A stretch of 64,000 nt of DNA from NCBI GenBank assembly GCA_044892525.1, contig CM097885.1:31436001-31500000 (forward strand), in the 5' to 3' direction. The notes under the pieces were generated by a model that was given only the letters and a program-made list of their open reading frames with translations, was not told the DNA's origin and did no database searches. Source of the DNA: Schmidtea polychroa (taxonomy: Eukaryota). A program made the position numbers and the translations under genes. Every line of letters starts with the position of its first letter. Within the stretch, counting starts at the first letter, position 1. Of this stretch, positions 14,220 to 50,944 are shown piece by piece.

Positions 14220-15194
14220 TTATATCGATTTATTTTCAAAATATTTGACCAACCTTTTCTTCCACATCTCCCAAGATTGATTTAAATATTTCCCATGAAC
14301 CAAAAAATCCGTAGCCGGAAATCCATCCCTGTAAACATAAATCAGTCGACCACGACTGATCTGAGATCAATAATTTGACCACAACTCTAATCCATATAAT
14401 ACTTGTTCGTTATTAGCTCTCCCGAAATTATAAGCACCAATATACGCTGCCAATTGTATCGGATCATCGTATGTGTCTTTAAATGCCGAAACTCTTCTGG
14501 GTTCGTTTTTGGTTTTAAATTCTACTATTTCTTTGTTATTTCTAATTGAAAGATTAACAAAAGGAATTTTTCATCATTCACAAACTTAAGTACAATTATA
14601 TTATCTAAAATTCCTTTGTATAATAAAGATGGGTGTGAAACGGTTTTATCATCTCCACAAACTGTTTGTGAGCATGATAAAATCTCTTGGGCACTTTTGA
14701 AAAATCCTTCCACACTCGAATTTAAATAAGGAATTTCTTTATCTTCCAAATATTGATCAAAAATTCTATGAACTTGAGTACCAATGTTCATAACATCTAA
14801 AATCATTTATATATTTTAAAATAATAATACAAATTCAATAACAAAATTTCAAATTACTTATCATGACTTTTGAAAATCATTGAAACATACCTTTTATATA
14901 TTGTTCAAATTTTATTTCTCCCATCTCCTTTATTTTTTTTTCTCGCCATTTTTTTAGCACTATTACTGACTGTAGAGACATTGTATTGTTTAAAATATGT
15001 GTAACAGACATCAAATTATTCACACCGTCTATATTTCGATTAAATTGCTCAAATTTATCTGATGAAATAGGAAAATCTGGAATAATTTCTAAAAGTTTTT
15101 TTGATATACATGAAGAAGAACATTTTTTTATATTTGTATATAAAATCGATTCAAATAGGATACTCGAATGGCAAAATTTGAAAATCATTAACAA
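14220..15194 (-). CDS. MGME1: MGME1-like mitochondrial PD-(D/E)xK exonuclease, at least 4 exons (start codon uncertain)
   Basis: SVTHILNNTM...KKWREKKIKEMG, GTQVH, HPSLLYKGILD, VEFKT, TYDDPIQLAAY; GT-AG introns ~14797-14890, 14542-14585 and 14361-14402 restore the frame. Confidence 0.8.
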
Positions 15195-31919: not shown

Positions 31920-34696
31920 TCTATAATCTAAAAAAAATCGATAAATTATACTATAGCAACACACAAACTTACCTGTGTGCAAAAATTTAATGTTCCGAAT
32001 GTTAAAAGTTTTATTATAGGAATTGAGAAAGTAACAGAAAAATAATTTTACATACAAACACAGCACACATAATATAAAATACATGTAAATTTAATATAGC
32101 TTTTTTTATTCCGAAAGTAGAAAGTCATTAACATATTGTTAACATATCATTATTTTTAATATATTAAAATTCATGGCAGAAAAAATTTTGGATTTTCAAT
32201 CGGACAACTCTACTTTGAGTTTTCAATAAAAGAACGACAAGACATCGTAAAATCTATTTATAAAATATTTTTGAAGTTATTATTTCTTTAGATTTTTAGA
32301 TAAAACTCGAAAATCGTAAATTTTTATAACTTGTATAAAAAAATGATAATTTCATAGTATTACATAAAATGACAAAATTTACCATATAAATGAGCTGGAG
32401 AAAGAACATTACAAAAACTTAAAAAACTACTCCGCTTTTTTCTTAAGTGTCTTAAAAAAATAAATGTTTTTGGTGATTTCTTTATTTATTCATAGTTAAA
32501 AATATTAATCTAACTTACATTTTATTAAAATAATTCCAAATAAATTCATAGTTATAAAAATTCTATAAAAATCCTGAAAATTAATTAAAAATAATTTATA
32601 ATCAAAATGTTGACTACAAGTAACATTTAAAAGCTTGAATAGTGATCTCATAATTTTATAAAATCAAAATTCCAACCTTAAAAGTTACTGAAATTAAAAA
32701 AACTTACTTGTAAAATTGAATAAATGAAATGAAGTAAATAACTTCACATTCTCATAAATGGTGAGTCATCAACTGATGAACACACCAACGTGTACACCTA
32801 ACCGCGAAATATAACATTATCTATAATCTAAAAAAAAATCAATAAATGTATATTATAGGAACACACCAACTTACCTGTGTGTAGAAATTTAAGGCTGCGA
32901 AATTTAACATTATTATTATAGGAATCTAAAAAGTGAGAGAAAATAATTAAGCATACAAGCACAGCACACATAATGAAAAATACATACAAAATTAAGTAAA
33001 GTGTTTTTCATGCGAAATATACATTGATTAACATATAATTAACATATCAATATTTTCAAATTATTTAAAAAGTTATGTACAAAAAAACTTTTGAATCAGA
33101 TTCTGACTGCTCTACCTTGAGCTTTAGGGAAAAAGAAGTAAATACATCGTAAGATTTAATTATAAAATAATTTAGAATATAAAATTTCTTTAGATTTACA
33201 GATATTGAAGAAGATCCTTCGACATCTTTGAATTTGCAGCAAAAAAATCGCAAATCGTAAATTTTAATAAATTATTTTAACAAATTAATATTTTCATAGA
33301 ATTACAGAAATAGACAAAAAATTCGAAAGAAGATTACAAAAACTTAAAAAATATTTTATCCATTCTTTACTAAATGTCTTTAAAAAATAAATGTTTAGTG
33401 ATTACTTTACTTATTTATAATTATAAAAATATCTAACTTACAATTTTACGAAATAAATCCAAATAAATCCAAATAAATCCAAATAAAATACCATAAAATT
33501 CCTAAAAAAACACCTGAAATTTAATTATCAATGTTATATATTATCAAGATTATAAATGCTGACTAACAGTAATATTTAAGAACTTGAATAATGATCTCAT
33601 AATAATATAAAATCAAAATTCAAGTCCTAAAAATTACTTTAATTCAAAAACTTACCTTTAAACGAATTTTGGAAAATTGAATAAATGAAATTAAGTTAAC
33701 ATTGTCATATAATTGGTGACTCACCAATGGTGGTGTGCACACCAACGTATATTATACACCCGTTTCCACATGTTAAAAGTCTCTATAATGCATGTTGGTG
33801 TGTTCATCAATCGATGACTCACCATTTATGAGAATGTTTATTTCATTTTTTCATTCTCAATTCAATTTTATTTATGTTGAGATCATTATTCAAGCTCTTA
33901 AATATTACTTGTAATCAGCATTTATAATATATTTATAATATATTGATAATTAAATTTCAGGTGCTTTTTTAGGTATTTTATGATATGTTATGAATTTGGA
34001 ATTATTTCAATAAAATGTAAGTTATATATATTTTTAACTAAAAAGAAATAAAATAATCACCAAATACATTTATTTTTTTCAAACATTTAGGAAAAAATCG
34101 GCGTATATGAACGAAATAGTTTTTTAAGTTTTTGTAATCTTCTTTCTCCAGCTCATTTTCAATAGCCTCTTTGACTATATCAAATCGGCTTGGAAAGGAC
34201 ATGGTTTCAATCGATTTTTTGGAGATTCCCAGTAATCTTCCAAAATCTTTATAATTTTCTTTATTTTCATATGCATTGATGAGACGGATTTTATCATTTT
34301 CTGAAATTCTTTGAAAATATTATTTTTTTAAAATAAGTTATTAAAATTTACGATTTTCGAATTTTTTTCTTCAATTATAAAGATGTCGATGGAACTTGTT
34401 GAATATCTTCACACAAAGGCGTTTGACTAGAAATATCTGATATGCTGTAAAATATTTTAATTATTTGTAATTAAATAAAAAAATTCTTACATTGTCAGAT
34501 CTTCACCTTCGCAAAATGGAAATGTCTCCAAAGAAATATCTGAAAATCTAAAGAAATATTAACTTCAAAAATATTTTATAAATAGATCTTACGATGTTTT
34601 GTCGTCCATTTCTCGAAAACTCAAAGTTGAGTTGTCAGATTCAAAATCCAAATTTTTTTCAGCCATGAATTTTAATAATTTTAAATTAATGATATG
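31920..34696. repeat. ~0.9-1 kb unit present three times: two tandem copies and one inverted copy that continues at 50951-51230
   Basis: 32745-32790 is the reverse complement of 33790-33837; 32085-32150 is the reverse complement of 50945-51010. Confidence 0.85.
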
Positions 34697-35896
34697 AGTA
34701 GGTAGAAACTAGCCCACGGGAACAATTACCCCCCCCCCCCGGGGGGGGGGGGGGTTGTTCCCAACTTTTTATTACGCAATTGTTCCCAACTCATTTTTTT
34801 GCTTTCAGGGATTTTTGGTCCAAATTTTTTTTTATCAGACTATAGTGAGAGGGTCTCGATGGTCCTGGGATTTTCAATACAAAAAATTTTTTTCAATACA
34901 AAAACGATGGTCCTGGGATTTTCAATACAAAAAATTTTTTTCAATACAAAAATCCGACTACCACTAAAAAAGCCAAGGATTTTTCAGACTATAGTGAGGT
35001 GGGTCTCCTTGGTCCTGAGAAATAGGTGGTCTACACTAAAAAAAAGCCAAGGAATTTTCAGACTATAGTGAGGTGGTCTCCTTGGTCCTGAGAAATAGGT
35101 GGTCTACACTAAAAAACGTGGTAAATTTTTCAATTGAAGTAAATAATGGTCCTAAAAATTAAATTAAAGTAAATAATGGTTCTAAAAATTGAATTACAGT
35201 AAATTATGGTCTAAAAATTAAATTACAGTAAATGATGGTCAAAATTTTTGAATTACAGTAAATTATGGTCAAAATTTTTGAATTACAGTAAATGATGGTC
35301 AAAATTTTTGAATTACAGTAAATTATGGTCAAAATTTTTGAATTACAGTAAATTATGGTCTAAAAATTAAATTACAGTAAATTATGGTCAAAATTTTGAA
35401 TTACAGTAAATTATGGTCTAAAAATTAAATTACAGTAAATGATGGTCAAAATTTTTGAATTACAATAAATTATGGTCAAAATTTTTCAATTACAGTAAAA
35501 TAAGGTCCAATTTTTCAATTAAAGTAAATAATGGTCCTAAAAATTAAATTAAAGTAAATTATGGTCCTTAAAATTAAATTAAAGTAAATTATGGTCCTAA
35601 AAAATTAAATTAAAGTAAATTAAGGTTCTAAAAAATTAAATTAAAGTTAATTAAGGTCTAAATTTTAAATTAAAGTTAATTAAGGTCTAAATTTAAAATT
35701 AAGTAATCAATGGTAAAAAATTTTAAATAAGTAATAATTTTTAAATAAGTAAATTAAAGTAATGTAATAAGTAAATTAAAGTAATATTTTAAAATTTATT
35801 AACAAAAAGTTGAAGGTGTTTGAGAATTGAAATTTTTTAATGGAAATTTTTATGGAATAATTTTTTTAAGTAATTTTTAATGGAAATTTTTAATGA

Positions 35897-35957
<61 letters not shown>

Positions 35958-36045
35958 GTAATAATATATCAACCAAATACATAAAAATGAACTATACACA
36001 TAAAACACAAACAAATAACAAATGTAAAGATATAAAATTTATTCA
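34697..36045 (+). repeat. Left TIR (~1.35 kb) with C/G hairpin, sub-repeats, ~29-bp tandem array and (AAT)n
   Basis: Reverse complement of the right end up to the pPolB stop region. Confidence 0.92.
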
Positions 36046-36051
36046 ATAAAA

Positions 36052-39000
36052 TTAGTCCTCATCGGACAAAATAACGTCATCGATATCGATGTCATCTTCT
36101 CCAAAATCTTCATTTAATTCTTCCTCATCTTCTCCAAAATCTTCATTTAATTCTTCCTCATCTTCTCCATCATTTTCTCCAACATTTTCTGAAACATTTT
36201 CTGCAACAATTTCTGCAACATTTTCTGCAACATTTTCTCCAATATTTAATTCACTTAATCTTACATGCCCATATGCAAGACTAGCATTTTTCCCCACCCA
36301 AACCCTTTTGTCGTCTTTGTTTGTTAGTGCTATTTTTGTGTTTTTAATTGTAAAAATTTGATGATTTTTGCTTGTTATTTTAGTCTGAGGAACCGAAAAA
36401 ATCTGGTTAGTGTTATAACAATCCAGGTATGACTGATGTTTTATGTCACTACCTTTCAATGTTACACCTTTAGCCTTTTTTGTTTCCTCATCACCCAACA
36501 AGCTATAACATTTAGGTCTAAGAAAAACCCATTCCTTATATTTAAGACCTTTATTCTCGTCTTTGAACTTTCCAATGACTGAATCAAGGTTCTTACTATA
36601 TAAGGAATGACAACTATTGTAATTGGAAGTATCCAATAAATTATCTCGAATCATTGTAGGTAAAAGAACCTCAAGTTTACAGTTAATGACTTCAAGGAAA
36701 AAAGAATCTGTATCACCTGCAACGATATTAATTTTACAATTAAACTCATTGCGAAATGATTCCAGATCCTTATATTGTAATTCATACATTCTAAGTTTAG
36801 ATAGATCAAGTACAGATTGACCAATGTAACTTGGTCTATCTAAACATATAGAATCTGAATTCAATAATGCAGCGATTAAATTATCGTCTATTTTAATAGA
36901 TTTTTTAAAAGTTGGCTTCGAAGAATATTTAACAAGTTTACCGGCAGTTGTACAAAGACGAAGATTCATTCTTCTCTTTAAATTTTCAACTGTTTTGCCG
37001 TATAAACTGTTATTTAGTAATTTATAATAATTTTTATCTAAGTTATTTATGCTTTTTGACCGTAATTCAGTATTTGTATCTATATATTTTTTAAAAATTG
37101 GAGATTGCTTAAATCTTACACCCCTATTTACATGTGTTACTTTAACACCAAGTTCCAAATATAATTTTAATAATCTCCAATGAATAACATAATTAGATTT
37201 TGGAAGATGAGTTAATAATAATTTTTCAACCTTAGACCCAGCAGGTTTCATTTTTTCAGCAGCTACAGGGAAATCATCCAACTTATCATGAAGCTCAGAA
37301 GGAATTACAAGATCAACTTCAAGTGTGTATCCATAAGACAAAGATTCAAGATTTAAATTCCTACATTCATCCATTATTTTATCAAATCCATCAAGAACCC
37401 AACAAAATTCGCCACAAGGTAATGATTGACTTAAAGCCCACCCATAAAGATTATTAATATCTATATATAGTAACTCGGTGTTGTCGTCGGTTTTTACGTA
37501 ATGCTTATTCACAAAAGTAAGACCGCCTCTTATTCCACCCTCATAAAAGCTAAACATTTCGTTTTCAGTTATGAGTTCAATTGGATCATTTAAAGACATT
37601 AATGCAGAAGACCAAGACATGCCAGGAATTCCGAAATAATTCAAAGGCTCTAATCTATTGTGAGCAATTGATTTCAACCTAAACTGATGAAAGAAATCAG
37701 CCAAAAGAAAACAATCAAGTTTTAGGTAGATCATCATATAATCTAATAAAGTTCTGCAATTAGATTCTACCCAAATCTCCTGAGCTTTTTCATACTCAAG
37801 CTCAGTGACACCCTCCCAGATTGGTGGTAATTCATACGTAGTTTGTAGAACATCTAAAGAAGTGGCGAAATTATAAGGGAAGATTCCTTTTTCACATACT
37901 ATGGTGCCAGAAAAAGCAGAATTAGTAAAAGGCAAAGAATTCAAAGTTTTGACTGCTTTAGCCAAAGAATCATTGACAAATTGATATGAATCAATGAATC
38001 TTAGACTAATTTTGCCTAAATGAGCAATCAAAGATATAAATTTTTCCGTAGTTATTGGGATGCACCCTAAATTCCAATTTTTAAATTTATTTAATCCATA
38101 TTTAAGTATATGATGCATATCGTATCCCTTCAAGTTGTGAAATACGATAGGCAAAATTTTATTTATTTTTCTATTTACGTTACATGTGCTACAAGCTGCA
38201 CCCAAGTATTTGCCTGTAAAATGATCGTGATCCCTAACAGGATCCACGATAGATTTCAAACAAAGATAACAAACCGTTGAATTAATGAATTGTTGTTGCT
38301 CATTTTTAGTTAATTTAATCATTGGTTTCCTACCCATTTTATAATAAAAAGGAAGAACCTTATTTAATGCTATATCCTCTATAGCACTTAAAAAACTCTC
38401 GACGCAATCTAAACCTATGAACTGCTGATAAGATTTAGATCCGTCAAAGTTATTTACTAGTAAAAGACCAGCAGATATTGGCATGTGTCGCTGAAAATGA
38501 TCATTATCACAAGGTAAAATAGCCTCAAAATCGGCATAAACTACGAAAGGAGGAGTTACTGTTTTCGACCAGTCAGTAAACTGTAAGAATTTATTTTGAG
38601 GGAAAGTATAAAGAGTAGTTCCTAATTGATTGCGTTTGCATAATATTTCATGTTTTTCTAGTGCGTTTCTATTGTAAAAACCATTCAAACAACGATGACA
38701 CCATATTGATTGTATGCGTGTAGGACAACTAATGTTTATGTGGCAATTCAGTAACCTATTTAAATTGCTTATAGCAATGTAATGGAAATTGTTCCCTTTA
38801 TTTAATAAAAGTAAATTAATTACTGTTCCATTTAAAACTTTGGAACGATGTATAATGTCTAAATGGGGGTGTTTTAAAACGTAATTATCTATTAATTGTT
38901 TGTTATTGTCATAAGAAAAAACGTTAATTATTAAACCAGGATTTTTGGCCTCGAATTTTCTAATATCTTTTAATTTCATTGGTAAGTCTAATGGATTATA

Positions 39001-40206
39001 TATTAACTCAGATCAATTATAACTGGATGTTCTATTTCTATATTGTTTAATAACTTCATCATATTTTAAAATAGCTAAAATGCTATATAAAAAACATGAA
39101 TCGTCGGTGTTTTTTACATTAATTAAGCAGTTTTTATTTTTTAGACAAGTAGGTAGTTCAATGAAACTCCTACCACTTAATCTACTTAACCTACTTATTT
39201 TCGTTATGGTGAAGTGGATTTCAGTTATTTTTTTTATAATCCAACTACTTCCTAACTCTGTGATATTACTTATTTTCTCGTTTAGTTCCCTAATGCCTTC
39301 GTCAAAAAATGTTGAAGTTAAAGGTTTTGCGTAATTCGAAATATTATTAACCTTTATTTCCCCGTCTTTTTCAAATTCGATTGTTATTCCGAATTGAATT
39401 TTGACGGAGCCTAATTCGTTAATAATATCTCGTAATTTTATAATTAATTGTTCTGGAAATATTATTTCCTTTATATTCAAGTTACTTGTATTTAGACTTA
39501 AAATTTGATGTGTACCCCTTAAATCTTTTTGTACTATGGGTACATTACCTCCTATTTGTACATTAGTAGTCGAAGAGTCGAGTGAAAGATTATCAAATTC
39601 ATTATTGGGTTCATCTACATCCCAAGAGTCGAGTGAAAGATTATCAAATTCATTATTGGGTTCATCTACATCCCAAGAGTCGAGTGAAAGATTATCAAAT
39701 TCATTATTGGGTTCATCTACATCCCAAGAATCGAGTGAAAGATTATCAAATTCATTATAGGATTCATCAACTAATCCGACCTGGGATTCAACAAAAGGCA
39801 ATCCATCATTGGATTCAGCAAAAGACAATCCATCATTGGATTCAGCAAAAGTCAATCCATCATTGGATTCAGCAAAAGACAATCCATCATTGGATTCATC
39901 AACTAATCCGACCTGGGATTCAACAAATGTATTTAATTTAATTTTTTTATTAGTAGTATTTATTTCAATAGTTGAAGGACGTTTAAAAATAACATCTTTT
40001 TTAGAATTGAACCTATCTAAATGTTGTTTATGCTTATTATAGAAAACGCTATATGTTAAGGGCTCGCTAATCTTACATATGGGGCATATAAAAAAAGTTT
40101 TATTATAGTATTTTTTAGAATAATAATTCTCCATTATAGAATGGCAATTATTATGTTCTTTCGACGAACAATAATTTGGGTAAAGTATACCTAAAAATAT
40201 ATACAT
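36052..40206 (-). CDS. polB: Protein-primed family B DNA polymerase with N-terminal extension and endonuclease VII-like insertion; one in-frame TGA at 39013-39015
   Basis: YADFE, FHNLKGYD, YIDINNLYG, KLLNNSLYGK, GDTDS, PKCY; CYLC...DHDHFTG...CSTCN; ORFs 39013-40206 and 36052-38979 are in frame, 11 codons apart. Confidence 0.95.
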
Positions 40207-40469
40207 TTAAAAATTTGGCTAAAAACATGTTTTTTGAATAAATATTTAAGTGTTATTTTAAATGTTGTTGAAAAAATTTTAAAGTTAATAAGTATTTAAT
40301 AAGGGTCAGATTATTATTAAAGAGTACTGCATGCTCACTGCAGACTATTATGTAGCTACGTGCTCACTGTAGACTACATTATTATATTAAAGACTACTGC
40401 ATGCTCACTGCAGACTATTATGTAGCTACGTGCTCACTGTAGACTACATTATTATTATCATTATAAAAA

Positions 40470-41030
40470 AAAATTTGCGAGGGATTTCCCCTTATTTCAA
40501 AATAAATATCATTAAAAAAAATATCATTAATAATAATTTCATTATAAAATATTATTTAAAAATGTTAATAATTTCATCATTATATAAAAAATTTTACGAG
40601 GGATTTCCCCTTATTTCAAAATAAATATCATTAAAAAAATATCATTAATAATAATTTCATTATAAAATATTATTTAAAAATGTTAATAATTTCATCATTA
40701 TATAAAAAAAAAATTTTTACGAGGGATTTCCCCTTATTTCAAAATAAATATCATTAATAATTATCATTAATAATAATTTCATTATAAAATATTATTTAAA
40801 AATGTTAATAATTTCATCATTATATAAAAAAAAATTTTTTTTACGAGGGATTTACCCTTATTTTTACTCTTAAGATAAAATTTTATTAAAAATATTAATA
40901 ATCATTTTTAAAAATATTATTAATTTCATTATAAAATATTATTAAAAAATTTTTTACGAGGGATTTCCCACTATTTTTACTCTTAAAATAAAATTTTATT
41001 AAAAATATTAATAATTTCATTATAAAATAT
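40470..41030. repeat. ~120-bp tandem repeat, 5 copies, each with a GAGGGATTT(C/A)CC core
   Basis: Cores at 40481, 40600, 40723, 40847 and 40960. Confidence 0.9.
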
Positions 41031-41057
41031 TATTTAAAAATTGATAAAAATACTTAC

Positions 41058-41322
41058 ATTTGTCATTTTTCATTGTTGCATTTTTCATTGTTTCATTATT
41101 AGCTTTTTTCATTGTTTCATTTTTAACATTTTTCATTGTTGCATTATTAGCTTTTTTCATTGTTTCATTATTAACATTTTTCATTGTTTCATTATTAGCT
41201 TTTTTCATTGTCGCATTTTTAACATTTTTCATTGTTGCATTATTAACATTTTTCATTGTTTCATTTTTAACATTTTTCATTGTTGCATTTTTAACATTTT
41301 TCATTGTTGTATTATTATTCAT
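41058..41322 (-). CDS. Putative first exon of the pPolB polyprotein (8-aa MKNVxNxT repeats)
   Basis: GTAAGT donor at 41057 and TTTTTAG acceptor at 40191 are phase-compatible (T|GT = Cys). Confidence 0.45.
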
Positions 41323-41633
41323 TTTTGATTTTTATCTAAAAATAATTAAATTTTAATAATTAAAAAATAAAATTCTTGCAATCCTTGGTACTAGCAAATT
41401 ATGACCAAATTTTAAAAACAAATCATTTATATACTTCTTCTTCTACTTAATACATTACGTAATAATTAAAGGATTTAATACCTTACATAATAATTAACTT
41501 AATTAAAGATTTAGTTTAATAATCAACTAAAATTTAAATTTTAATAATCAATTATATTGAATTAATAATCAACTAAAAATTTATTGAAATAATCAGCTAA
41601 AATTTATTGAAAACAACTTTTTATTATAAAAAT

Positions 41634-42012
41634 TTATTTCATTGACTTTAACCAAGCCAAACAATGTTGTCCACATGTTTTTGTTATAGGGTTTTGGTAA
41701 CGTATTCGATTGTATTCAATTGGCATTGACATTGATTGTAGTTTATTGATTAATATAGGTGGATAATAGAATCCCATTGGATCAAATGCATATATTTTGT
41801 CTGGTTTCACGTATACTGCAAGCCAATGTTCACCATTCAGATTAGCAGATTGAGTATTTACAATTATTGCTTTGTTGACATCTAAATAAGGTATTTTGTC
41901 TAATGGGAAAACACCTAGAAATTCTTTTCCTAGTAATTTTCTTCCGATAACATGTATCTGAATAGAACTAAATTAATAATAATTAAATAATTTAAATTAA
42001 TTCTTACTTCAT
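41634..42012 (-). CDS. Adenain-type cysteine maturation protease, 112 aa, 40-nt intron 41968-42007 (absent from the ORF track)
   Basis: MN|SIQI...FLGVFPLDKIP...IVNTQSANLNGEHWLAV...FDPMG...YQNPITKTCGQHC; His-Asp-Gln-Cys residues present. Confidence 0.92.
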
Positions 42013-42046
42013 ATTTGATTAATTGATTTTCGATATTTGGTTTATA

Positions 42047-43270
42047 TTATACCAAAACAGTACGAGTAGATGTAATTTGAATTTCTTTTTCAAAAACTCC
42101 ATATACAATTACAGAAACGGCTTCAGTAAGTGAAGATGCGAATTTAATATCTAATCGCAAATTTCCACTTTGTGGTAACTGACTTTGATGAAGATCAAAA
42201 TCTGGTGCCAATACGAATGTAAAGAATGGATACTTGCTCTTAAAATCAGACATGGTGATACCACAATTCATATTTTTATTTAGATAACCCATATTTCTAA
42301 TAATCGATTGCATATAACTTGTACTATAATCATCATTCTCAAAATCTTGACTATATTTTTCGCGATAATCACTTCCTTTACTTAAAGTTATGGACTTGAC
42401 ATTAAAGTGATCAAATAAAGAAAATGATTCTGAAAACGATCCACTAAATCTTTTACTAGATTGAAATGCAACAAGTATAAAATTAGGTAATCGTCTATCT
42501 CCAAATATTTGTTCTTTATAAAAAGAGGAAGAACCAATAGGTAATGAGAAATCAACAACTTCTTTGCTTCTTAAAGGATAAATTGCATTTTTGGTAGACA
42601 GACCAATTTGATGTCCTGCCAAAACCGATGGTTCAACACGAACTCTTCTAACCATTAATTTTGCGTCTAATAATAAAATTTTCGGTTCAATTTTCGCACA
42701 AGTTAAACTAAGTGTTGGATTTGATCTTGTTAATTTAATTTGAACACTAACACCTGGTAGTAAATATTTAGGTTGATCAAAGAAATCAAATTGAAGTGGG
42801 GAACATAAAGAAAAGGATTTTGATTTTTCAATCCATGTTTTTCTCGTAAGATCTTTGTTAGTATACCCCATTCCACCTAAAGATGTTCGTTTAGTATCTC
42901 CGTCATAATTTATAAGTGTTTCAATTAATGCTTTGTGGGCAAATCTATCATTTGATCCTTCAACTTTGATTGAATTAAAAATTAATTCAACATCTTTAAA
43001 AAGGGTTTGGAAGAAGAAATTATTTGGAATTACTTCTGATTCGCCTAAATTCTCACCTAAATTATTAACAACTTTCAATTGAATATATAACAAAGTATCA
43101 TTCAAATCTAAATATTCAGTCTGCGATCCATTTATGTAAAATTGAATCGAAGAAGAACCGGCATCTGTAATTGAATTTCTTGGGTATACATCTTCAAATG
43201 CTCCATGTTCAATCACTGCTTGGGGAGAAGGTCTATCAAAAAGACATAATTCTGATTTAGCACTAATCAT
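42047..43270 (-). CDS. Major capsid protein (double jelly-roll, Polinton PY/hexon-like)
   Basis: KSELCLF...IQFYING...YLDLNDTLLY, QPKYLLPGVSVQIKLTRS, GNLRLDIKF; 407 aa. Confidence 0.92.
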   Translation of the reverse strand: MISAKSELCLFDRPSPQAVIEHGAFEDVYPRNSITDAGSSSIQFYINGSQTEYLDLNDTLLYIQLKVVNNLGENLGESEVIPNNFFFQTLFKDVELIFNSIKVEGSNDRFAHKALIETLINYDGDTKRTSLGGMGYTNKDLTRKTWIEKSKSFSLCSPLQFDFFDQPKYLLPGVSVQIKLTRSNPTLSLTCAKIEPKILLLDAKLMVRRVRVEPSVLAGHQIGLSTKNAIYPLRSKEVVDFSLPIGSSSFYKEQIFGDRRLPNFILVAFQSSKRFSGSFSESFSLFDHFNVKSITLSKGSDYREKYSQDFENDDYSTSYMQSIIRNMGYLNKNMNCGITMSDFKSKYPFFTFVLAPDFDLHQSQLPQSGNLRLDIKFASSLTEAVSVIVYGVFEKEIQITSTRTVLV

Positions 43271-43665
43271 TTTTCAAAGATGGTACCATATACTTTCATT
43301 CTTTTGTTTATATGTTTCTTCATAATTTTTCGGCGTTTAAGTATTCCGCCTTTTTGTTCTTTATCATTTTTAAATACATCGGATACTTTATTAATTACTT
43401 CAGGTAAATGTTGCATCACAGCTGGTAATGATTCTTTAATTTCAGAAATTGCATTTGATTTTAAAGCAGGCAAGATATTTGCATTGTTATTTATTACGTC
43501 ATTAGCTGTTTTCATACCAAAATTTCCTATTCGTCTAAGAATTGGGAGTGCAAATCTACCTATTGTCTTCAACCAACCGGTTCCATATTGTTTACCAACA
43601 AAATATGGTAAATCACCACCCGATTGGTTACTACTATAAAAATGTATTATGTCAGGATTACTCAT
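43267..43665 (-). CDS. Conserved Polinton small virion protein with amphipathic helix (candidate membrane-active/core protein)
   Basis: QSGG...YFVGKQYGTGWLKTIGRFALPILRRIG, basic C-terminus; overlaps both neighbours. Confidence 0.75.
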   Translation of the reverse strand: MSNPDIIHFYSSNQSGGDLPYFVGKQYGTGWLKTIGRFALPILRRIGNFGMKTANDVINNNANILPALKSNAISEIKESLPAVMQHLPEVINKVSDVFKNDKEQKGGILKRRKIMKKHINKRMKVYGTIFEK

Positions 43666-44674
43666 TTATTTTACGAAAATGTAATGTCAAGTATGTTTTA
43701 TCTTCTTTTCCAAATATATATTTTCCACTATCATCTCGTATATTGATTTCTATATTGTTTATATATGAAGACGATACAGGTAAGTACATTGGATTCTTTT
43801 CAATTATTTGTACTAAATCATCTTTTTTATGTTTTTCCACCCAAATACATTTCAAAAGAGGGACCAATGTATCACCAACAATGATAGGTTCGATAATATT
43901 TGTATAGATCATCAATTGTTGATTGCGTTGTAATACTTCAGGTTCTTTAAAACCAATAATAAGTTTGTCAGTATATGCTTCTTCTAATAAACCTAAACTA
44001 TTGGCTAAAAATTTACTAAATTGAACTTTACTGACATCATCATCCATTACAATTTTAACGATTTTTCCTTTTTGAATATCAACAGATTTAAATGGACGAG
44101 GATAAAAGAGTGATAGTTGATCATTTATTTGTGAAAGATCTGTAATGATATTTTCTTCGAATGTATCTGTATACTCGACATCGTAATAATATTGTATAGT
44201 TAATCGAATTGTATCAAACTTTATTTTTCGATTATTTGGAGGAATAGTGATTTGGTTCAAGGCTTTTTTAAAAGTTATTTCTTTTTCTGAAAATCCCAAT
44301 TTCTGCGCTTCTTTAATACTATCGAATTCTACTTTAAAAGGAAAATATTTACAATTAATGTTCAATGTATTTCCATCAATATATATTAAATAAAATGGAG
44401 AGTCGTGACTGATTGTATATTCATTTTTTTCTTGGTTAAAGTAAAAGTATTCATAACTTGTATGTAATACACTTTTACTATATTTGACATTTGAATTGTT
44501 GTAAAAAGGAAAATAATTATACACAAAGGTAAAGTCCATGAGAGCTACTTCCCATTCACCATCCAAGTAAATAGGATTTTGAAATTCGACATTAAATTTA
44601 CCAGCTTCATTATTTGGATGAGTCTGAGGACAACTATTAGAAGGTAAATTCACATAAAAATCTTTTTTAATCAT
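43658..44674 (-). CDS. Minor capsid protein (penton, single jelly-roll), paralog 2
   Basis: FYVNLPSNS...PIYLDGEWEVAL...IYTNIIEPIIVGDTLVPLL...LTLHFRK. Confidence 0.9.
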   Translation of the reverse strand: MIKKDFYVNLPSNSCPQTHPNNEAGKFNVEFQNPIYLDGEWEVALMDFTFVYNYFPFYNNSNVKYSKSVLHTSYEYFYFNQEKNEYTISHDSPFYLIYIDGNTLNINCKYFPFKVEFDSIKEAQKLGFSEKEITFKKALNQITIPPNNRKIKFDTIRLTIQYYYDVEYTDTFEENIITDLSQINDQLSLFYPRPFKSVDIQKGKIVKIVMDDDVSKVQFSKFLANSLGLLEEAYTDKLIIGFKEPEVLQRNQQLMIYTNIIEPIIVGDTLVPLLKCIWVEKHKKDDLVQIIEKNPMYLPVSSSYINNIEINIRDDSGKYIFGKEDKTYLTLHFRKINE

Positions 44675-45692
44675 TTATTTTACGAAAATGTAATGTCAAG
44701 TGTGTTTTTGTATCTCTACTAAATTTTATTAATTTTCCACTATCATCTCGTATATTGATTTCAATGTTGTTTATAGAAGAATTAGAAATTGGTAGATACA
44801 TTGGATTCTTCATTTCTAGTTGCACAATTTCTCCTTGTTCATATTTTTTTATCCAAATAGATTTCAATAACGGAACTCTTACATCTCCAACAGTCAATGG
44901 TTCGATAATATTTGAGTAAATAAACATTTGTTGATGATGATTAAATAATTTTGGAATTTTTGTTCCAATAATTTCTTTCTCTGTAAATGTTTGTTTCTTT
45001 AATCCCAATGTTTTTGTTAAATTTTTATCAAAGGTTATTGATGAAATGTTATCAGCAAGACTTATTTTAACCAATTCATTATTTTGTATTTTTAAATCTT
45101 TAAAGGGAGACGGATTAATTGTCATTAACTGACCATGTATTTCAGATAAAGTATTGATGTATAGTTCATCTTCGAAATAATGTTCAAATTTTGTTTTTTC
45201 AACAACGCTTATAATTATACCAAATTGATCAATTGTTTTATCTTCTGTAAATTTTGGTAATTTAATTCGCAAATGATCACTATCACTAATAACCGATACT
45301 GATTTTAATCCAAATTTAATAGCATGTTCAAAATCTGGAAACGTTATTTTAAATGGAACATGTGGACAAACAACAACCAAATTCTCATATCTTTCAATGA
45401 ACATGTCAACTTCAGGAGTATTTTTAGGATTTATTACTTCAAAGGTTCGATTTGAATTATTTATTCTAAAATATTTAATTTCTTCATCCATCTTTACTTT
45501 TTCATATTGTATCAATGAATTACTGTAATAAGGAAAAGTATTATACACAAAGGTAAAGTCCATGAGAGCTACTTCCCATTCACCATCCAAGTAAATAGGA
45601 TTTTGAAATTCGACATTAAATTTACTAGCTTCATTATCGGGGAAAATAAGGGGACAACTATTAGAAGGTAAAATAATATAAAAATCTTTCAT
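44667..45692 (-). CDS. Minor capsid protein (penton, single jelly-roll), paralog 1
   Basis: FYIILPSNS...PIYLDGEWEVAL...IYSNIIEPLTVGDVRVPLL...LTLHFRK. Confidence 0.9.
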   Translation of the reverse strand: MKDFYIILPSNSCPLIFPDNEASKFNVEFQNPIYLDGEWEVALMDFTFVYNTFPYYSNSLIQYEKVKMDEEIKYFRINNSNRTFEVINPKNTPEVDMFIERYENLVVVCPHVPFKITFPDFEHAIKFGLKSVSVISDSDHLRIKLPKFTEDKTIDQFGIIISVVEKTKFEHYFEDELYINTLSEIHGQLMTINPSPFKDLKIQNNELVKISLADNISSITFDKNLTKTLGLKKQTFTEKEIIGTKIPKLFNHHQQMFIYSNIIEPLTVGDVRVPLLKSIWIKKYEQGEIVQLEMKNPMYLPISNSSINNIEINIRDDSGKLIKFSRDTKTHLTLHFRKIND

Positions 45693-45697
45693 AATAT

Positions 45698-46834
45698 TTA
45701 TTTAATCAATTGATTTTCGGATATCCAAGATGGAGTTTCATATCCATGCCATTTAACATAGTATTGTTTATATTTACCATCTTTTTTGGTTTTTAAAATC
45801 TTTTGAATTCTAAATATTGTAGGAGCAGGAATTACTTGGAGTTCTTGTTCATAGAATTTACCAGTGATTGGTTTGTTTTCATGATCAACTATCACATACA
45901 TGACAGGATTCTGTTTTGTATCGATTTTTAAAATTTGATATACTTCATCACTCCAATTATTATCAAAGTTTTTGATGAATGGTGAAGAATTGATTTTACT
46001 AATTCTTACATGATCACCAACCTTGTATTTCGGTTTATTGATTTTTTCTGACTTTGTTTGATTTTTAGTAAAATCTGCAGGTGTTTGTCCTTTTAATCCT
46101 CTGTGTGGTGAATGATTGTAACTGAAAATAATTTTTGGCAAAACATTTATCCAAGTTTTATTACCTTGATATACAAAATATTTTTTCAAACGTTCTCTTA
46201 AAGTTCGATTAAATCGTTCTACATGAGCAGCTTTGAACTGAGAAAATACTGAGTAGTGGTTTATTCCTTTGATAACCTCTTTAACTTTGCTGTTATAAAA
46301 TTCTTTACCTAAATCATATATTTAAAAATTAATTAATTAAATTTAATTACCTAAATCCGTTTGTAAATTAATAGGTTTACCATCTGCAAACATTTCTTTT
46401 ATCGCATCAGCCATTTCATTTGCAGATTTGGTTTTTGTAGGAACAGCACGAGCATATCTATTAAAAACATCTATACAAGTCAGAATATATTTGTACCCCT
46501 TGTTAATTTTTGAATAAGGTATCATTTCCATCAAATCCATTTGCCATACATCATTGTTTCCAATTGTTTTGTATGGTCTTGTTGGAAAACGTTTCAACAT
46601 TGGTTTATTTAAACTATATGCTAATTGATTAGATAACCATTTCTGAGTTTCTTTCTTTGAATTATTCACTCGTTTTGTTAATTTTTCTACGCCACCAAAA
46701 CCATCTGGATCTTTTGGGTTTGTCCATATTGTTTTTAACTTTTTCTCTATTGTTTTCACTTTTTTCACTTTTGTTTTCACATTTGTTTTCACATTTTTCA
46801 CTTTTGTGTTGGTTTTGTGATACGTTTCCTTCAT
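45698..46834 (-). CDS. int: Retroviral-like integrase with C-terminal chromodomain, 364 aa, 42-nt intron 46309-46350
   Basis: WQMDL, LQTDLG|KEFYN, KAAHVERFNRTL, YKVGDHVRI, YYVKWHGY; splicing joins the two ORFs without stops. Confidence 0.95.
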
Positions 46835-46903
46835 TATTACAACAAGTTGTCAAAATATTAAAATCTACAATATTTTTATTTGGTAATGAACTCTTGATAC
46901 CCA

Positions 46904-47230
46904 TTAAGAACTTAATGATGAGATTGCACTAATTGCAGATAAGACTATAGGAATTAATGCACCCAAGAACCCTCCTTTTTGTTTATATATTATCTTTCTC
47001 ATTAGACGACGATTTTTTGTATCAACTAGAGATAAAAGTGATCTTTTATGTCTTTGCAATGCTAATCTTTTAGCTTTAGTTATATTTACATTACCACGGA
47101 CAACATTTATAATAACTTCAAGTAAATCATCAATAACAAATGATGGAAAAGACTGTAAAATTGATATTCGTTTCGAATTTGGTGCCTTTATTAAAGCATT
47201 AAAATATGGTAAACTCCGTTCAAATTTCAT
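46904..47230 (-). CDS. Conserved Polinton small protein ending in QxGGF plus a hydrophobic tail (108 aa from ATG 47230)
   Basis: EVIINVVRGNV...KQKGGFLGALIPIVLSAI. Confidence 0.8.
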   Translation of the reverse strand: MKFERSLPYFNALIKAPNSKRISILQSFPSFVIDDLLEVIINVVRGNVNITKAKRLALQRHKRSLLSLVDTKNRRLMRKIIYKQKGGFLGALIPIVLSAISAISSLSS

Positions 47231-47259
47231 TATTATTATTAATTTACGCGACGGATTGT

Positions 47260-47412
47260 TTATAATTTGATCCACTTCTTGATTTGTTTCTTAGTTTTTG
47301 TACTTTTTGTACTTTTTGATCCACTTTTTGTTTTCTTTGTACGTTTTGTTTTCTTGGTAATTTTCTTCGAAACACTTGGAAGATTTTTAACAACTACTTT
47401 TTTAAATGACAT
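47260..47412 (-). CDS. 50-aa Lys-rich basic protein (absent from the ORF track)
   Basis: MSFKKVVVKNLPSVSKKITKKTKRTKKTKSGSKSTKSTKTKKQIKKWIKL; fills the gap between the ATPase and the next gene. Confidence 0.65.
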   Translation of the reverse strand: MSFKKVVVKNLPSVSKKITKKTKRTKKTKSGSKSTKSTKTKKQIKKWIKL

Positions 47413-47431
47413 GATTAATTTTATTTAGTTT

Positions 47432-48055
47432 TTAGTTTTGTTTATAAATCGTAACACCGTTTATATTAAAAATATCAGTTCTAATACGCATATCATCTGG
47501 ACATTGTTGTGTAAAATCAAAAAATAAATATCCATGAGGAATTTTTGTCGCATCTTGGAATGAATCAATCAAAAATTTTCTATTATTTGGATAAGCTTGT
47601 CTTGAAAGAAAATCTATTATTGTTTGATCTCTAGGATTTTTGAAAATAATTAAATATTGGACATTTAAATTACGTGTTCTATGACTTCCACCTTGATGAA
47701 AAAGATTTTGTGTAATGAAAATAACTGTAACTCCGCAATGTCTACTGATTTTTGTAAATAAATTATTAAAATCCTTTTCTTTATTTGCTTCCTGGTACAG
47801 ATCATCGATAATAATAACATCACCTTGGCGTAATCTAGATGACCAATTTTTATCAAATCCTTTAATTATGGTCATTTTTAATTTACAGAAACTGTTTTGG
47901 GTCAATCCATGTTCTTCATCTGCACCTCGATGCCAATATATTTTATTAAATTTAGATTTAAACATGTTTGATTGTAATAAATTACATACAAATAAAGTTT
48001 TCCCGCTTCCACTAGGTCCTACAATTTGATATACTGCGTCATTTCTTAATTCCAT
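47432..48055 (-). CDS. FtsK-HerA/A32-like genome packaging ATPase
   Basis: Walker A GPSGSGKT, Walker B VIIIDD, SRH...ITQNLF, FKNPRD. Confidence 0.95.
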   Translation of the reverse strand: MELRNDAVYQIVGPSGSGKTLFVCNLLQSNMFKSKFNKIYWHRGADEEHGLTQNSFCKLKMTIIKGFDKNWSSRLRQGDVIIIDDLYQEANKEKDFNNLFTKISRHCGVTVIFITQNLFHQGGSHRTRNLNVQYLIIFKNPRDQTIIDFLSRQAYPNNRKFLIDSFQDATKIPHGYLFFDFTQQCPDDMRIRTDIFNINGVTIYKQN

Positions 48056-48105
48056 TTTTTAATTAAATTATTTTATTTAATTTGTTTATAATTACAATAA
48101 TTAGA

Positions 48106-48582
48106 ATGATCAGCAACATTAATTATAGAGGAAGATGTGTAGTAAATGGAATGAAGTTCCCATCAGGAAAACCTCAACATGTCATGGACAGAAGTGGAAA
48201 ATATCCAATTTTATTCTTCAAGAGCGGGAAATGTAGGATAATGGGATGTAAGAAACCATTACAGGAAGGCGATCTCAAATATCAAATTCAAGATTTACAA
48301 ATCCAATCAATTACATTAACGTTAGATATGGGTACATGCGTTGATTTAAATGCATTGTCAAGGAAAACCGATAGTTACTACGAGCCTGAAATATTTCCAG
48401 CTTTACGTATTCTCAAGTATAACCCACTATGTGTAAATGTTTTTTCAAGTGGGAAAGTTGTTATATTAGGGATTAAAACATTTGATTATTTTAATCAAAT
48501 TCAAGAAATTCAGAAATTCATTAAATCATTAACTATAAATATCACAACAAATGAAGAAATATTGGAATATTTATTAAGTTAA
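48106..48582 (+). CDS. TATA-binding protein (TBP)-like protein, core only, 158 aa from ATG 48106
   Basis: Two-repeat TBP signature: ISNINY...ILFFKSGKCRIMG and IQSITLTLD...DLNAL...YEPEIFPAL...VFSSGKVVILG. Confidence 0.85.
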   Translation: MISNINYRGRCVVNGMKFPSGKPQHVMDRSGKYPILFFKSGKCRIMGCKKPLQEGDLKYQIQDLQIQSITLTLDMGTCVDLNALSRKTDSYYEPEIFPALRILKYNPLCVNVFSSGKVVILGIKTFDYFNQIQEIQKFIKSLTINITTNEEILEYLLS

Positions 48583-48645
48583 TTAAATTAATTTAATTAA
48601 TTGTGTTTAAATTAACTGAATATCTACAATAACAAAAATTCAAAA

Positions 48646-48993
48646 ATGGATGACGATAAGCAAGCTTACATATTCCAGACTATATTAACAAAGATGGAAG
48701 AATTGTTCCCGAATATAAAGAACAGACTTTCGTATTGTGCTCCGGAACTATTAGCTTATAGAATCAAGCAATTAACGGGGATCAATATAGAAGAACTTAT
48801 ACGAAGACATTTCGAATCTGTCCAAGAATCGAGATTTAAATGCATAGACGATTGTGAAGTATGTATGGATCCGATGAAATTACCATGCCCGTTTAGATGT
48901 AGATGCTGCCAAGAATATAAGATGAAAGAAGTTGATCATATTTTATTAGCAGAATTAAGAAGAGCTTATTACAAGCAAATATTGGATGAATAA
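48646..48993 (+). CDS. Cys-rich putative zinc-binding protein, 115 aa, function unknown
   Basis: AAAATGG start; CIDDCEVC...CPFRCRCC cluster; stop abuts the right TIR. Confidence 0.7.
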   Translation: MDDDKQAYIFQTILTKMEELFPNIKNRLSYCAPELLAYRIKQLTGINIEELIRRHFESVQESRFKCIDDCEVCMDPMKLPCPFRCRCCQEYKMKEVDHILLAELRRAYYKQILDE

Positions 48994-49086
48994 ATTTTAT
49001 ATCTTTACATTTGTTATTTGTTTGTGTTTTATGTGTATAGTTCATTTTTATGTATTTGGTTGATATATTATTACTAATATTATTAC

Positions 49087-49150
<64 letters not shown>

Positions 49151-50944
49151 TCATAAAAATTTCCATTAAAAATTACTTAAAAAAAAAATATTTCATAAAA
49201 ATTTCCATTAAAAATTATTCATAAAAAATTTTCATTAAAAAATTTCAATTCTCAAACACCTTCTATTATTTCAACTTTTTTGATAATAAATTTAAAAATC
49301 TTACTTTAATTTACTTATTTAACTTTAATTTAAAATTTTTACCATTGATTACTTAATTTAAAAATTATTACTTTAATTTACTTATTTTAAATTTTTTACC
49401 ATTGATTACTTAATTTTAAAATTTGGACCATTATTTACTGTAATTTAATTTTTAAGAACCTTAATTTACTTTAATTTAATTTTTAGAACCATAATTTACT
49501 TTAATTTAATTTTTAGAACCTTAATTTACTTTAATTTAAAATTTTGAACCATAATTTACTTTAATTGAAAAATCTTGACCATTATTTACTGTAATTCAAA
49601 AATTTGGACCATTATTAACTGTAATTTAATTTTTAAGAACCATAATTTACTGTAATTTAATTTTTAAGAACCATAATTTACTGTAATTCAATTTTTAGAA
49701 CCATTATTTACTGTAATTCAAAAATTTACCATGCTTTTTTAGTGTAGACCACCTTTTTCTATTGAAATTCTCAGGACCAAGGAGACCCACCTGAATTGAC
49801 CTAGAAAATTCCATGCTTTTTATTGGTAGTCGAATTTTTGTATAGAAAATCTCAGGACCATCGAGACCCACCTCACTATAGTCTGAAAAATTCTATGCTT
49901 TTTTAGTGAGACCGCCTTTTTGTATTGAAAAAAATTTTTTGTATTGAAAATCCCAGGACCATCGTTTTTGTATAGAAAAAATTTTTTTGTATTGAAAATC
50001 CCAGGACCATCGAGACCCCCTCACTATAGTCTGAAAATTCCATGCTTTTTTATTGAAGACCGCCTTTTTCTATTGAAAAAATTTTGTATTGAAAATCCCA
50101 GGACCATCGAGACCCCCTCACTATAGTGTGAAAAATCCTTGGCTTTTTTAGTGGTAGTCGGATTTTTGTATTGAAAATATCCTGAGACCTTAAATTACCA
50201 TGCTTTTTTAGTGGTAGTCGGATTTTGTATTGAAAAAATTTTATTTGTATTGAAAATCCCAGGACCATCGAGACTCCTTCACTATAGTCTGAAAATTCCA
50301 TGCTTTTTTATTGAAGACCAGCTTTTTGTATTGAAAAAATTTTTTTGTATTGAAAATCCCAGGACCATCGAGACCCCCTCACTATAGTCTGAAAATTCCA
50401 TGCTTTTTTAGTGGTAGTTGGATTTTTGTATTGAAAAATTTTTTTTGTATTGAAAATCCCCGGACCATCGAGACCCCCTCACTATAGTGTGAAAATTCCA
50501 TGCTTTTTTAGTGGTAGTCGGATTTTTGTATAGAAAAAATTTTTTTGTATTGAAAATCCCAGGACCATCGAGACCCCCTCACTATAGTCTGAAAATTCCA
50601 TGCTTTTTTAGTGGTAGTCGGATTTTTGTATTGAAAATCCCCGGACCATCGAGACCCCCTCACTATAGTGTGAAAATTCCATGCTTTTTTAGTGGTAGTC
50701 GGATTTTTGTATAGAAAAAATTTTTTTGTATTGAAAATCCCAGGACCATCGAGACCCCCTCACTATAGTCTGATAAAAAAAAATTTGGACCAAAAATCCC
50801 TGAAAGCAAAAAATGTGAGTTGCAACAATTGCGTAATAAAAAGTTGCAACAAAAAAAAGTTGCAACAAAAAAAAAGTTGCAACAACCCCCCCCCCCGGGG
50901 GGGGGGGGGGGGTAATTGTTGCGGTAAGCCACTATCTACCTACT
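48987..50944 (-). repeat. Right TIR (~1.96 kb) with an expanded sub-repeat array
   Basis: About nine GAAAATC(C/T)C(A/C)GGACCATCGAGAC...CACTATAG units at 49850-50770. Confidence 0.92.

What the first reader, a model, noticed from the sequence alone, without database searches (positions are those of the whole stretch)
41968..46350. Host-sized spliceosomal introns in core Polinton genes (protease and integrase)
Seen: the protease is only complete if a 40-nt GTAAG...TTTAG intron (41968-42007) after ATG AA is removed. The integrase needs a 42-nt intron (46309-46350, containing an in-frame TAA) removed to restore LQTDLGKEFYN. These sizes match the 42 and 44 nt introns of the host MGME1-like gene in this window. 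Inference: splicing gates integration and virion maturation, and naive ORF calling misreads these genes as missing or broken.
Basis: partly seen in the sequence, partly recalled or inferred. Interest (0 to 1): 0.7.

Follow-up and report, generated by a model that had tools for sequence, protein, structure and literature searches.

The report
Short host-type introns in Polinton genes
A virus-like jumping element in a flatworm genome has its protease and integrase genes each split by a tiny ordinary intron, one old and shared with distant relatives and one apparently new, although the core genes of such elements are usually treated as intron-free.

Summary
The 40-nt protease intron is well supported: 4 of 8 related loci (3 distinct elements, 50-53% protein identity) carry a 39-40-nt GTAAG..AG intron at the same position and phase with unrelated interiors, and uninterrupted homologs put their start Met exactly where splicing puts it. 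The 42-nt integrase insert has three in-frame stops, is absent from 21 of 21 related loci covering the site, and is flanked by an 11-nt direct repeat holding AG|GT: most likely a younger gain. Its fixation in the family and its splicing are not shown. No junction read was obtained. Mis-calling by intron-blind gene finders is visible in database proteins. The 'splicing gate' is unsupported; constitutive introns are likelier. This copy's polymerase has an in-frame stop. Papers read call Polinton core genes intronless; introners in dinoflagellate Polinton-like proviruses and introns in a latent giant virus are in print. This scan already noted intron-bearing Polintons in two other genomes and in sister families here. 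New variant of a known kind; interest 0.5.

The parts
34697..50944 (.). Polinton/Maverick element, 16,248 nt, ends starting AGTAG, long imperfect inverted ends, identical 6-bp target duplication on both sides
   Evidence: ends, duplication; inverted arms I4, I6, I8, I15, I16
42008..42012 (-). Protease exon 1 coding part: start codon plus two bases
   Evidence: same layout in L006, L008, L010, L016
41968..42007 (-). 40-nt phase-2 GTAAG..TTTAG intron of the protease gene, conserved in position in distant relatives
41634..41967 (-). Protease exon 2, adenain-type cysteine protease (His47, Asp62, Gln91, Cys98 counted in this exon; roles recalled from adenain)
   Evidence: PF00770 E 1.4e-5; profile hit to solved adenain E 2e-5
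42040..42046 (-). TATAAAC box 34 nt before the protease start codon; candidate promoter, which would make exon 1 only about 10-15 nt long (inferred)
   Evidence: 10 minus-strand copies, all between 42046 and 48090, against 1 on the plus strand; ATAAAC core 31-32 nt before the ATG in the four intron-bearing relatives, where it lies inside capsid codons; lead from e1-7879962
46351..46834 (-). Integrase exon 1 (first in-frame ATG at 46834), N-terminal part of the rve core
   Evidence: PF00665 E 1.2e-8
46309..46350 (-). 42-nt phase-1 GT..TTTAG insert with three in-frame stops; probable young intron
46347..46357 (-). First copy of the 11-nt direct repeat that holds AG|GT and supplies the donor
46305..46315 (-). 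Second copy of the 11-nt direct repeat; supplies the acceptor. L001-L003, L012 and L013 have AG|GT once at the empty site
45698..46308 (-). Integrase exon 2, rest of the core and chromo-like tail
   Evidence: PF13683 E 4e-4 and PF00385 E 3e-4, both under the curated cut-off
42047..43270 (-). Major capsid protein, uninterrupted
   Evidence: ESM Atlas neighbours at 0.98, PF21738 on 14-30% of their members, recognition value under the tool's threshold; 42-53% identity to relatives
43267..43665 (-). 132-aa conserved ORF of unknown function
43658..45692 (-). Two paralogous ORFs, probably minor capsid proteins (label from position and recall; no Pfam hit)
46904..47230 (-). Small basic ORF with an adenovirus mu-like stretch
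   Evidence: PF05829 E 2.6e-6
47432..48055 (-). A32-type packaging ATPase, uninterrupted
   Evidence: PF04665 E 7e-7
48067..48582 (+). TBP-like gene, head to head with the ATPase; also in L006, L007, L015
   Evidence: PF00352 E 1e-15
36052..40206 (-). Protein-primed family B DNA polymerase, broken in this copy by an in-frame stop at 39013-39015
   Evidence: PF03175 E 5e-31; the L006 homolog is one 1143-aa open frame across this point
14221..15194 (-). Host MGME1-like gene used as size reference; candidate introns 14797-14890 (94 nt), 14542-14585 (44 nt), 14361-14402 (42 nt)

Best explanation
This is an integrated Polinton whose genes are transcribed in the host nucleus and whose protease and integrase transcripts each lose one short, very AT-rich GT-AG intron through the host spliceosome, constitutively, like the host's own short introns. 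The two introns have different histories. The protease intron is old: it separates the start codon from the rest of the gene, is kept at the same place in elements about 50% alike, and has had its interior replaced while ATG, donor, acceptor and length (39-40 nt) were held by selection, which means these lineages kept needing a spliced protease mRNA. The integrase intron is younger: AT-rich filler entered an exonic AG|GT site with duplication of 11 nt (staggered-break repair, or a small duplication that later decayed), which supplied donor and acceptor at once, so that exact removal leaves the protein unchanged. Shown: sequence, position, conservation, absence in relatives, flanking repeat. 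Inferred: splicing, constitutive use, promoter position, mechanism of gain.
For: Protease: same position, phase and GTAAG donor in L006, L008, L010, L016, interiors only 53-70% alike between distinct elements at 7-18% G+C; that layout arose in 0, 13 and 6 of 200,000 shuffles of the upstream 60 nt of L006, L008 and L010; 19 of the 35 best-scoring of 160 proteases start with Met exactly two residues before the first exon-2 codon; unspliced, the first Met lies behind His and Asp; the nearby alternative acceptor at 41958 is out of frame. Integrase: canonical ends, exact frame, three stops; 21 of 21 covering loci lack it; its nearest homologs in the tree other than P0085 are uninterrupted; 11-nt repeat, with only one other exact repeat of 11 nt or more at 30-60 nt spacing in 9,656 coding nt, and that one in a tandem array; 4-12-bp direct repeats and high A+T mark new introns in Daphnia (PMC4202315, passages). 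Host candidates of 42-51 nt lie in the same window.
Against: No spliced read or contig was seen. This copy has a stop in its polymerase, so it may be decayed and the integrase insert could be a lesion of this copy; sister copies could not be scored at that site. The protease tree does not resolve intron carriers as one clade, and P0287 (65% identical, nested near the window) starts with M-N-S without any extension, so it is either intronless or from a transcript. Flanking repeats of 5 bp or more are as common at old as at new Drosophila introns (PMC3443670, passage), so a repeat alone does not prove the route of gain. 40-42 nt is just under the 45-85-nt peak reported for Schmidtea mediterranea (PMC13594981, passage); the host species is not identified.
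Confidence: 0.7

Rival explanations
1. Regulated splicing gate: retention of these introns in most cells keeps integrase and protease off, and splicing in one cell type or stage switches on integration and virion maturation, as the germline-only intron of the Drosophila P element does (recalled).
For: Retention would abolish both enzymes. The protease intron has been kept through about 50% protein divergence right behind the start codon. The integrase donor is weaker than the protease donor and a second GT follows the acceptor at once. Planarian Polintons are de-silenced tissue-specifically (PMC8532177, passages).
Against: No retention data. The protease donor is near consensus in all carriers. 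The integrase intron is missing in 21 of 21 covering relatives and the protease intron in 4 of 8, so neither is needed by the wider group. No conserved interior motif that could bind a regulator was seen. In the one endogenous virus with RNA data that I read, introns go with constitutively expressed latency genes rather than virion genes (10.64898/2026.10.09.758095, passages).
Confidence: 0.12
2. The protease intron is real, but the integrase insert is an inactivating 42-nt insertion in this one decayed copy that only looks like an intron because the duplicated site happened to hold AG|GT.
For: This copy's polymerase already has an in-frame stop. AG|GT is present at the empty site in 5 of 21 relatives, so any duplication there gives canonical ends. 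No relative with the insert was found.
Against: Length and 7% G+C match the protease intron and the host's short introns. Capsid, ATPase, both minor-capsid-like genes and both integrase exons are open and the target duplication is intact, which points to a recent insertion of a working parent. A break of the parent's integrase is not required to explain anything.
Confidence: 0.13
3. Both introns are copies of an introner (intron-making transposon) family of the host, as in dinoflagellate Polinton-like proviruses.
For: The integrase insert has a direct repeat like a target duplication. Introners do occur in Maverick/Polinton-like proviruses (PMC11957031, parts 1-2 of 4). L010 has another 46-nt AT-rich GT..AG segment with repeated ends.
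Against: The two introns are no more alike than shuffles (552 of 2,000 score as high). No other copy of the protease intron, and only one 31-of-42 AT-rich match to the integrase intron, in the window or fetched loci. Protease intron interiors differ between relatives. The host genome was not available, so a family elsewhere is not excluded.
Confidence: 0.05

Closest known systems
Polintons/Mavericks of vertebrates and Caenorhabditis (PMC8097293; 10.1101/2022.07.12.499685; passages read)
   Same: Inverted ends, 6-bp target duplication, protein-primed PolB, rve integrase, packaging ATPase, adenain-type protease, capsid genes.
   Different: Both papers describe the core genes as intronless (introns only in nematode cargo genes). 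Here two core genes are interrupted, and the element also carries a TBP-like gene.
Introner-bearing Maverick/Polinton-like proviruses of dinoflagellates (PMC11957031, parts 1-2 of 4 read)
   Same: Intron-type sequence inside full-length Polinton-like elements.
   Different: There, copies of host introner families found by similarity, mostly inserted after integration; the parts read do not place them in core genes or show a position shared between elements. Here the introns are unique, 40-42 nt, in an animal, and one position is shared by elements about 50% alike.
Punuivirus, latent giant virus of Chlamydomonas (10.64898/2026.10.09.758095; abstract and passages)
   Same: An integrated dsDNA virus with host-type GT-AG introns that the first annotation missed.
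   Different: A giant virus; 61 of 506 genes, mean 176 nt, RNA-validated, enriched in latency genes. Here a 16-kb element, and the introns are in the maturation protease and the integrase.
New introns of Daphnia pulex and the AG|GT duplication model (PMC4202315, PMC3443670; passages)
   Same: AT-rich insert with a short direct repeat shared between one end and the adjacent exon (4-12 bp there, 11 bp here).
   Different: Described in cellular genes with population data; here in a mobile element, with the empty site seen only in other element lineages.
Adenoviruses (recalled, no call)
   Same: Related protease, nuclear transcription, dependence on the host spliceosome, a very short first coding exon in E2B transcripts.
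   Different: Adenoviruses use long-range alternative splicing from few promoters; here each structural gene seems to have its own TATAAAC box and the introns are minimal.

Membership tests
Polinton/Maverick | [quoted passage not shown] | tested here: met
Polinton/Maverick | Protein-primed family B DNA polymerase | tested here: met
   PF03175 E 5e-31; one in-frame stop in this copy
Polinton/Maverick | Retroviral-type (rve) integrase | tested here: met
Polinton/Maverick | Packaging ATPase, adenain-type protease, double jelly-roll capsid | tested here: met
   the capsid call rests on Atlas neighbours, no fold was predicted
Polinton/Maverick | Size of about 15-20 kb (range recalled) | tested here: met
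   16,248 nt
Polinton/Maverick, 'intact' as defined in PMC8097293 | All core ORFs open and intronless | tested here: not met
   two interrupted core genes and a polymerase stop; this was a filter for vertebrate elements, not a family definition
U2-type spliceosomal intron | GT..AG ends, donor consensus, T-rich acceptor | tested here: met
U2-type spliceosomal intron | Exact removal gives colinearity with uninterrupted homologs | tested here: met
U2-type spliceosomal intron | Position and signals conserved while the interior drifts (protease intron) | tested here: met
U2-type spliceosomal intron | Position shared with relatives or sister copies (integrase intron) | tested here: inconclusive
   absent in 21 of 21 distant relatives; sister copies not scorable
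U2-type spliceosomal intron | Removed from RNA | tested here: inconclusive
   contigs only, RNA status guessed, rows at 46316-46353 dropped by the tool
Introner | Many similar copies at unrelated loci | tested here: inconclusive
   none in the window or 27 fetched loci, and the two introns are unrelated; genome not held
Regulated intron-retention switch (P-element type) | Cell-type- or stage-specific splicing | not testable with these tools
   no raw RNA reads offered

The most novel reading that the evidence does not exclude
A broad lineage of invertebrate Polintons has carried, for long enough to halve its protein identity, a start-codon micro-exon and a 39-40-nt intron in the virion-maturation protease, and goes on gaining introns in other core genes; the introns are kept because they do something (a splicing checkpoint on maturation, or a 'self' mark that spares the transcripts from silencing of intronless RNA, as the title and abstract start of PMC8770142 describe for human cells), and this lineage is under-counted because virus surveys use intron-blind gene callers.
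Probability: 0.2. Interest if true: 0.75.

Novelty: new variant of a known kind. Interest (0 to 1): 0.5.

Why it matters
Surveys of endogenous Polinton-like viruses state that these viruses have no introns and call genes with prokaryotic tools (PMC10120064, PMC9356565; passages), and a vertebrate survey counted only intronless elements as intact (PMC8097293). A conserved intron in a core gene means such pipelines will report a missing or truncated protease and a broken integrase in elements that may be sound; database entries with wrong N-termini are already visible. Biologically, an intron held across elements about 50% alike is sequence evidence that the maturation protease is made from a nuclear, host-spliced transcript and is still under selection, which bears on whether animal Polintons form particles on their own. 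The integrase site, with filled and empty states and an 11-nt repeat, is a clean candidate for a recent intron gain in a mobile element.

Tried and rejected
No whole genome is held, so sister copies could not be counted. Run search: 14 runs listed, 9 hold part of the stretch, no RNA holder on record. Laying 4 of the 14 runs (X1, X3, X4, X7) on 41420-48980 showed many variant copies in organism A and at lower likeness in organism B, but all are contigs; no 40-nt skip at the protease intron is among the 15 joints shown (211 more not shown) or the 12 gap rows shown (26 more not shown), and rows at the integrase repeat were dropped (6 joints), so nothing follows for splicing. Viral collection: integrase and capsid queries found nothing, the protease profile 4 distant loci, L024-L027, whose gene starts were not examined. 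P0085, the closest integrase (82%), is a chimeric gene model that begins just after the site; not usable for or against. DNA for the closest proteases (P0284-P0288, P0297, P0298, P0311) could not be fetched, so their intron status is inferred from protein N-termini only; among all 160 proteins 61 fell in the class 'extension without Met', which I did not inspect beyond the top 35, and one top-35 row in that class (P0309) is a misclassification. Trees did not resolve a single origin of the protease intron; long branches L017, L022, P0295. A 50-nt version of the protease intron was rejected as out of frame. An introner origin found no support. The shuffle count for the window itself (0 of 200,000) is not a test, since the pattern was drawn from it. 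Look-ups of earlier scan notes by sequence and by relatives returned nothing. Literature searches found no paper describing spliceosomal introns at fixed positions in animal Polinton core genes; Repbase reports, most subscription papers and all supplements were not seen and may hold such gene models.
Full report
Setting. The finding lies in a 16,248-nt element at 34697-50944 that has ends beginning AGTAG, an identical 6-bp duplication on both flanks and long imperfect inverted ends. On the minus strand it encodes a packaging ATPase, a small basic protein, an rve integrase, two paralogous probable minor capsid proteins (label recalled, no Pfam hit), a 132-aa ORF, a major capsid protein, an adenain-type protease and a protein-primed polymerase; a TBP-like gene is on the plus strand. 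It is a Polinton/Maverick. The polymerase has an in-frame stop at 39013-39015, where the L006 homolog is open. The host is a flatworm: the best named relatives of the neighbouring adenylate cyclase are from trematodes and cestodes, behind unnamed entries. A planarian is likely from composition and from an earlier scan note (e1-7879936), which I did not test. No whole genome is held.

Observation. Both segments are as described: 40 nt at 41968-42007 and 42 nt at 46309-46350, GT..AG, 7% G+C, two of the three lowest-G+C 40-mers in 41634-48993. The integrase insert holds three in-frame stops rather than one. The host MGME1-like gene is real and has candidate introns of 44 and 42 nt, and also one of 94 nt. 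Other host candidates in the window are 37-53 nt. For Schmidtea mediterranea the short-intron peak is given as 45-85 nt (PMC13594981, passage), so 40-42 nt is at or just under its lower edge; the host may be another species.

Protease intron. A scan of metagenome contigs with integrase exon 2 returned 23 loci, many with a similar gene order. Eight include the protease start. Four (L006, L008, L010, L016; three distinct elements, since the L008 and L016 interiors are identical) have ATG, two bases, a GTAAG donor, a 39-40-nt AT-rich interior and an AG one base before the same codon; four (L015, L017, L021, L022) have an ordinary in-frame start. Carriers are 50-53% identical to the window's protease, and their intron interiors are 53-70% alike between distinct elements at 7-18% G+C. 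The layout appeared in 0, 13 and 6 of 200,000 shuffles of the upstream 60 nt of L006, L008 and L010. Of the 35 best-scoring among 160 protease homologs, 19 begin with Met exactly two residues before the first full exon-2 codon, which is what splicing gives. Unspliced, the first Met is residue 64, behind His47 and Asp62. This is the pattern of a maintained intron and I put it at about 0.93. The same call shows the annotation problem: P0285, P0297, P0298 and P0311 have low-complexity extensions ending in Ser, P0286 and P0288 start M-I-S, as read-through of an acceptor would give, and P0296 matches L010's protease started at an internal Met; their DNA was not seen. Against a simple picture: P0287, 65% identical and near the window in the tree, starts M-N-S, so it is intronless or transcript-derived, and the tree does not resolve carriers as one clade. 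A TATAAAC box lies 34 nt before the start codon, one of 10 on the minus strand of the structural module against 1 on the plus strand of the element (lead from e1-7879962); if it is the promoter, exon 1 is only about 10-15 nt (inference).

Integrase insert. 119 of 120 protein homologs are contiguous at this motif (biased, since they are single-ORF calls), and 21 of 21 loci that cover the site are uninterrupted (about 12 distinct elements by my reading of identical junctions; L016 and L023 do not cover it). The window's integrase groups with P0085 (100/99) among uninterrupted homologs, with weak support for the wider group (84/71), so the insert looks derived. It is flanked by an exact 11-nt direct repeat that contains AG|GT; only one other such repeat occurs in 9,656 coding nt, inside a tandem array; 5 of 21 empty sites have AG|GT once. 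New Daphnia introns are AT-rich and often share a 4-12-bp repeat with the adjacent exon (PMC4202315, passages); a review warns that short flanking repeats are as common at old introns in Drosophila (PMC3443670, passage). The likely history is filler inserted with an 11-nt duplication that supplied both splice sites. Because the same event would give canonical ends even in a dead copy, and this copy's polymerase is broken, I put 'spliced intron' at about 0.8. The two introns are unrelated in sequence (552 of 2,000 shuffles score as high), which speaks against one introner family.

RNA. No run on record as RNA holds the stretch. Four of 14 runs were laid; all are contigs, show many variant copies in two organisms, list no skip at the protease intron among the rows shown, and have the rows at the integrase repeat dropped. 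This is neither for nor against splicing.

Mechanism. Most likely both are constitutive, intron-defined U2 introns removed by the host spliceosome (0.7). A regulated gate (0.12) has no direct support: retention would remove both enzymes, but that holds for any intron, the group mostly lacks the integrase intron, and no conserved interior motif was seen. A copy-specific lesion in the integrase (0.13) and an introner origin (0.05) remain open. The long survival of the protease intron leaves room for an adaptive role; that is the novel case (0.2).

Comparison with print. Vertebrate and nematode Maverick core genes are called intronless (PMC8097293; 10.1101/2022.07.12.499685; passages), and protist surveys assume no introns (PMC10120064, PMC9356565; passages). 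Introners in dinoflagellate Polinton-like proviruses (PMC11957031, parts 1-2 of 4), group I introns in cryptophyte elements (PMC12220804, passages) and spliceosomal introns in a latent giant virus (10.64898/2026.10.09.758095, abstract and passages) are described. Word look-ups for 'intron' in 10.1101/2023.08.22.554363, PMC8502044, PMC11296320 and PMC5718144 gave nothing on spliceosomal introns in core genes (for the last, 12 of 23 places were shown); PMC8502044 lists a TBP-like gene in a figure legend; PMC8532177 (passages) reports piRNA-controlled, tissue-specific de-silencing of planarian Polintons; PMC8770142 was seen as a search listing only. Searches found no description of a conserved intron position in an animal Polinton core gene; Repbase reports, closed journals and supplements were not seen. 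Within this scan the theme is not new: unchecked notes report intron-rich Polintons in two other genomes and spliced polymerase leaders in sister families of this genome.

Verdict. Observation confirmed; interpretation partly supported. New variant of a known kind. Interest 0.5.

Noticed in passing
window 39013-39015 (-): In-frame stop in the polymerase gene of this copy; the L006 homolog is open there. An earlier scan note mentions conserved in-frame TGA in retrotransposons of this genome (e1-7879953); no link was tested.
   Followed up: partly
window 40191-41057 (-): Candidate third, long intron (867 nt): a GTAAGT donor after an 88-codon exon made of 24-nt repeats (ATG at 41322) and a T-rich acceptor just inside the polymerase frame, phase 1 on both sides. 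It spans an array of about 118-nt repeats. No relative covers it.
   Followed up: partly
window 48067-48582 (+); L006 2405-2815, L007 323-733, L015 6478-6933: TBP-like gene in the element and in three relatives, at different places relative to the ATPase.
   Followed up: partly
window 42046-48090 (-): Ten TATAAAC boxes on the minus strand, 34-153 nt before the starts of the structural-module genes, two of them together at 47446 and 47465 before no called gene.
   Followed up: partly
L010 873-918 (+): 46-nt AT-rich GT..AG segment with repeated sequence at both ends, in front of an ORF that looks like a dual-specificity phosphatase by eye; a second possible intron gain by duplication.
   Followed up: no
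L006 225-722 (-) and 9576-10052 (+); L010 7836-8309; L015 5843-6352: Cargo ORFs in relatives: one like an E2 ubiquitin-conjugating enzyme (by eye) and a shared ORF after the protease that the window's element lacks at that place.
   Followed up: no
window 34040-34666 (-), with copies near 32160 and 33100 (+): Repeated host-side gene with candidate introns of 45, 46 and 51 nt; one copy starts about 30 nt outside the Polinton's left end.
   Followed up: no
window 8483-9030: Sequence similar to the Polinton's terminal repeat arrays, 26 kb to the left of the element; perhaps a separate end or a non-autonomous relative (families D6, D7, D10, D17).
   Followed up: no
window 21654-24890 (+): Intronless 1,078-codon frame for a type 9-like adenylate cyclase, used to place the host among flatworms.
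   Followed up: yes
window 19025-20746 (+): Tigger/pogo-type DDE transposase split by one stop.
   Followed up: no
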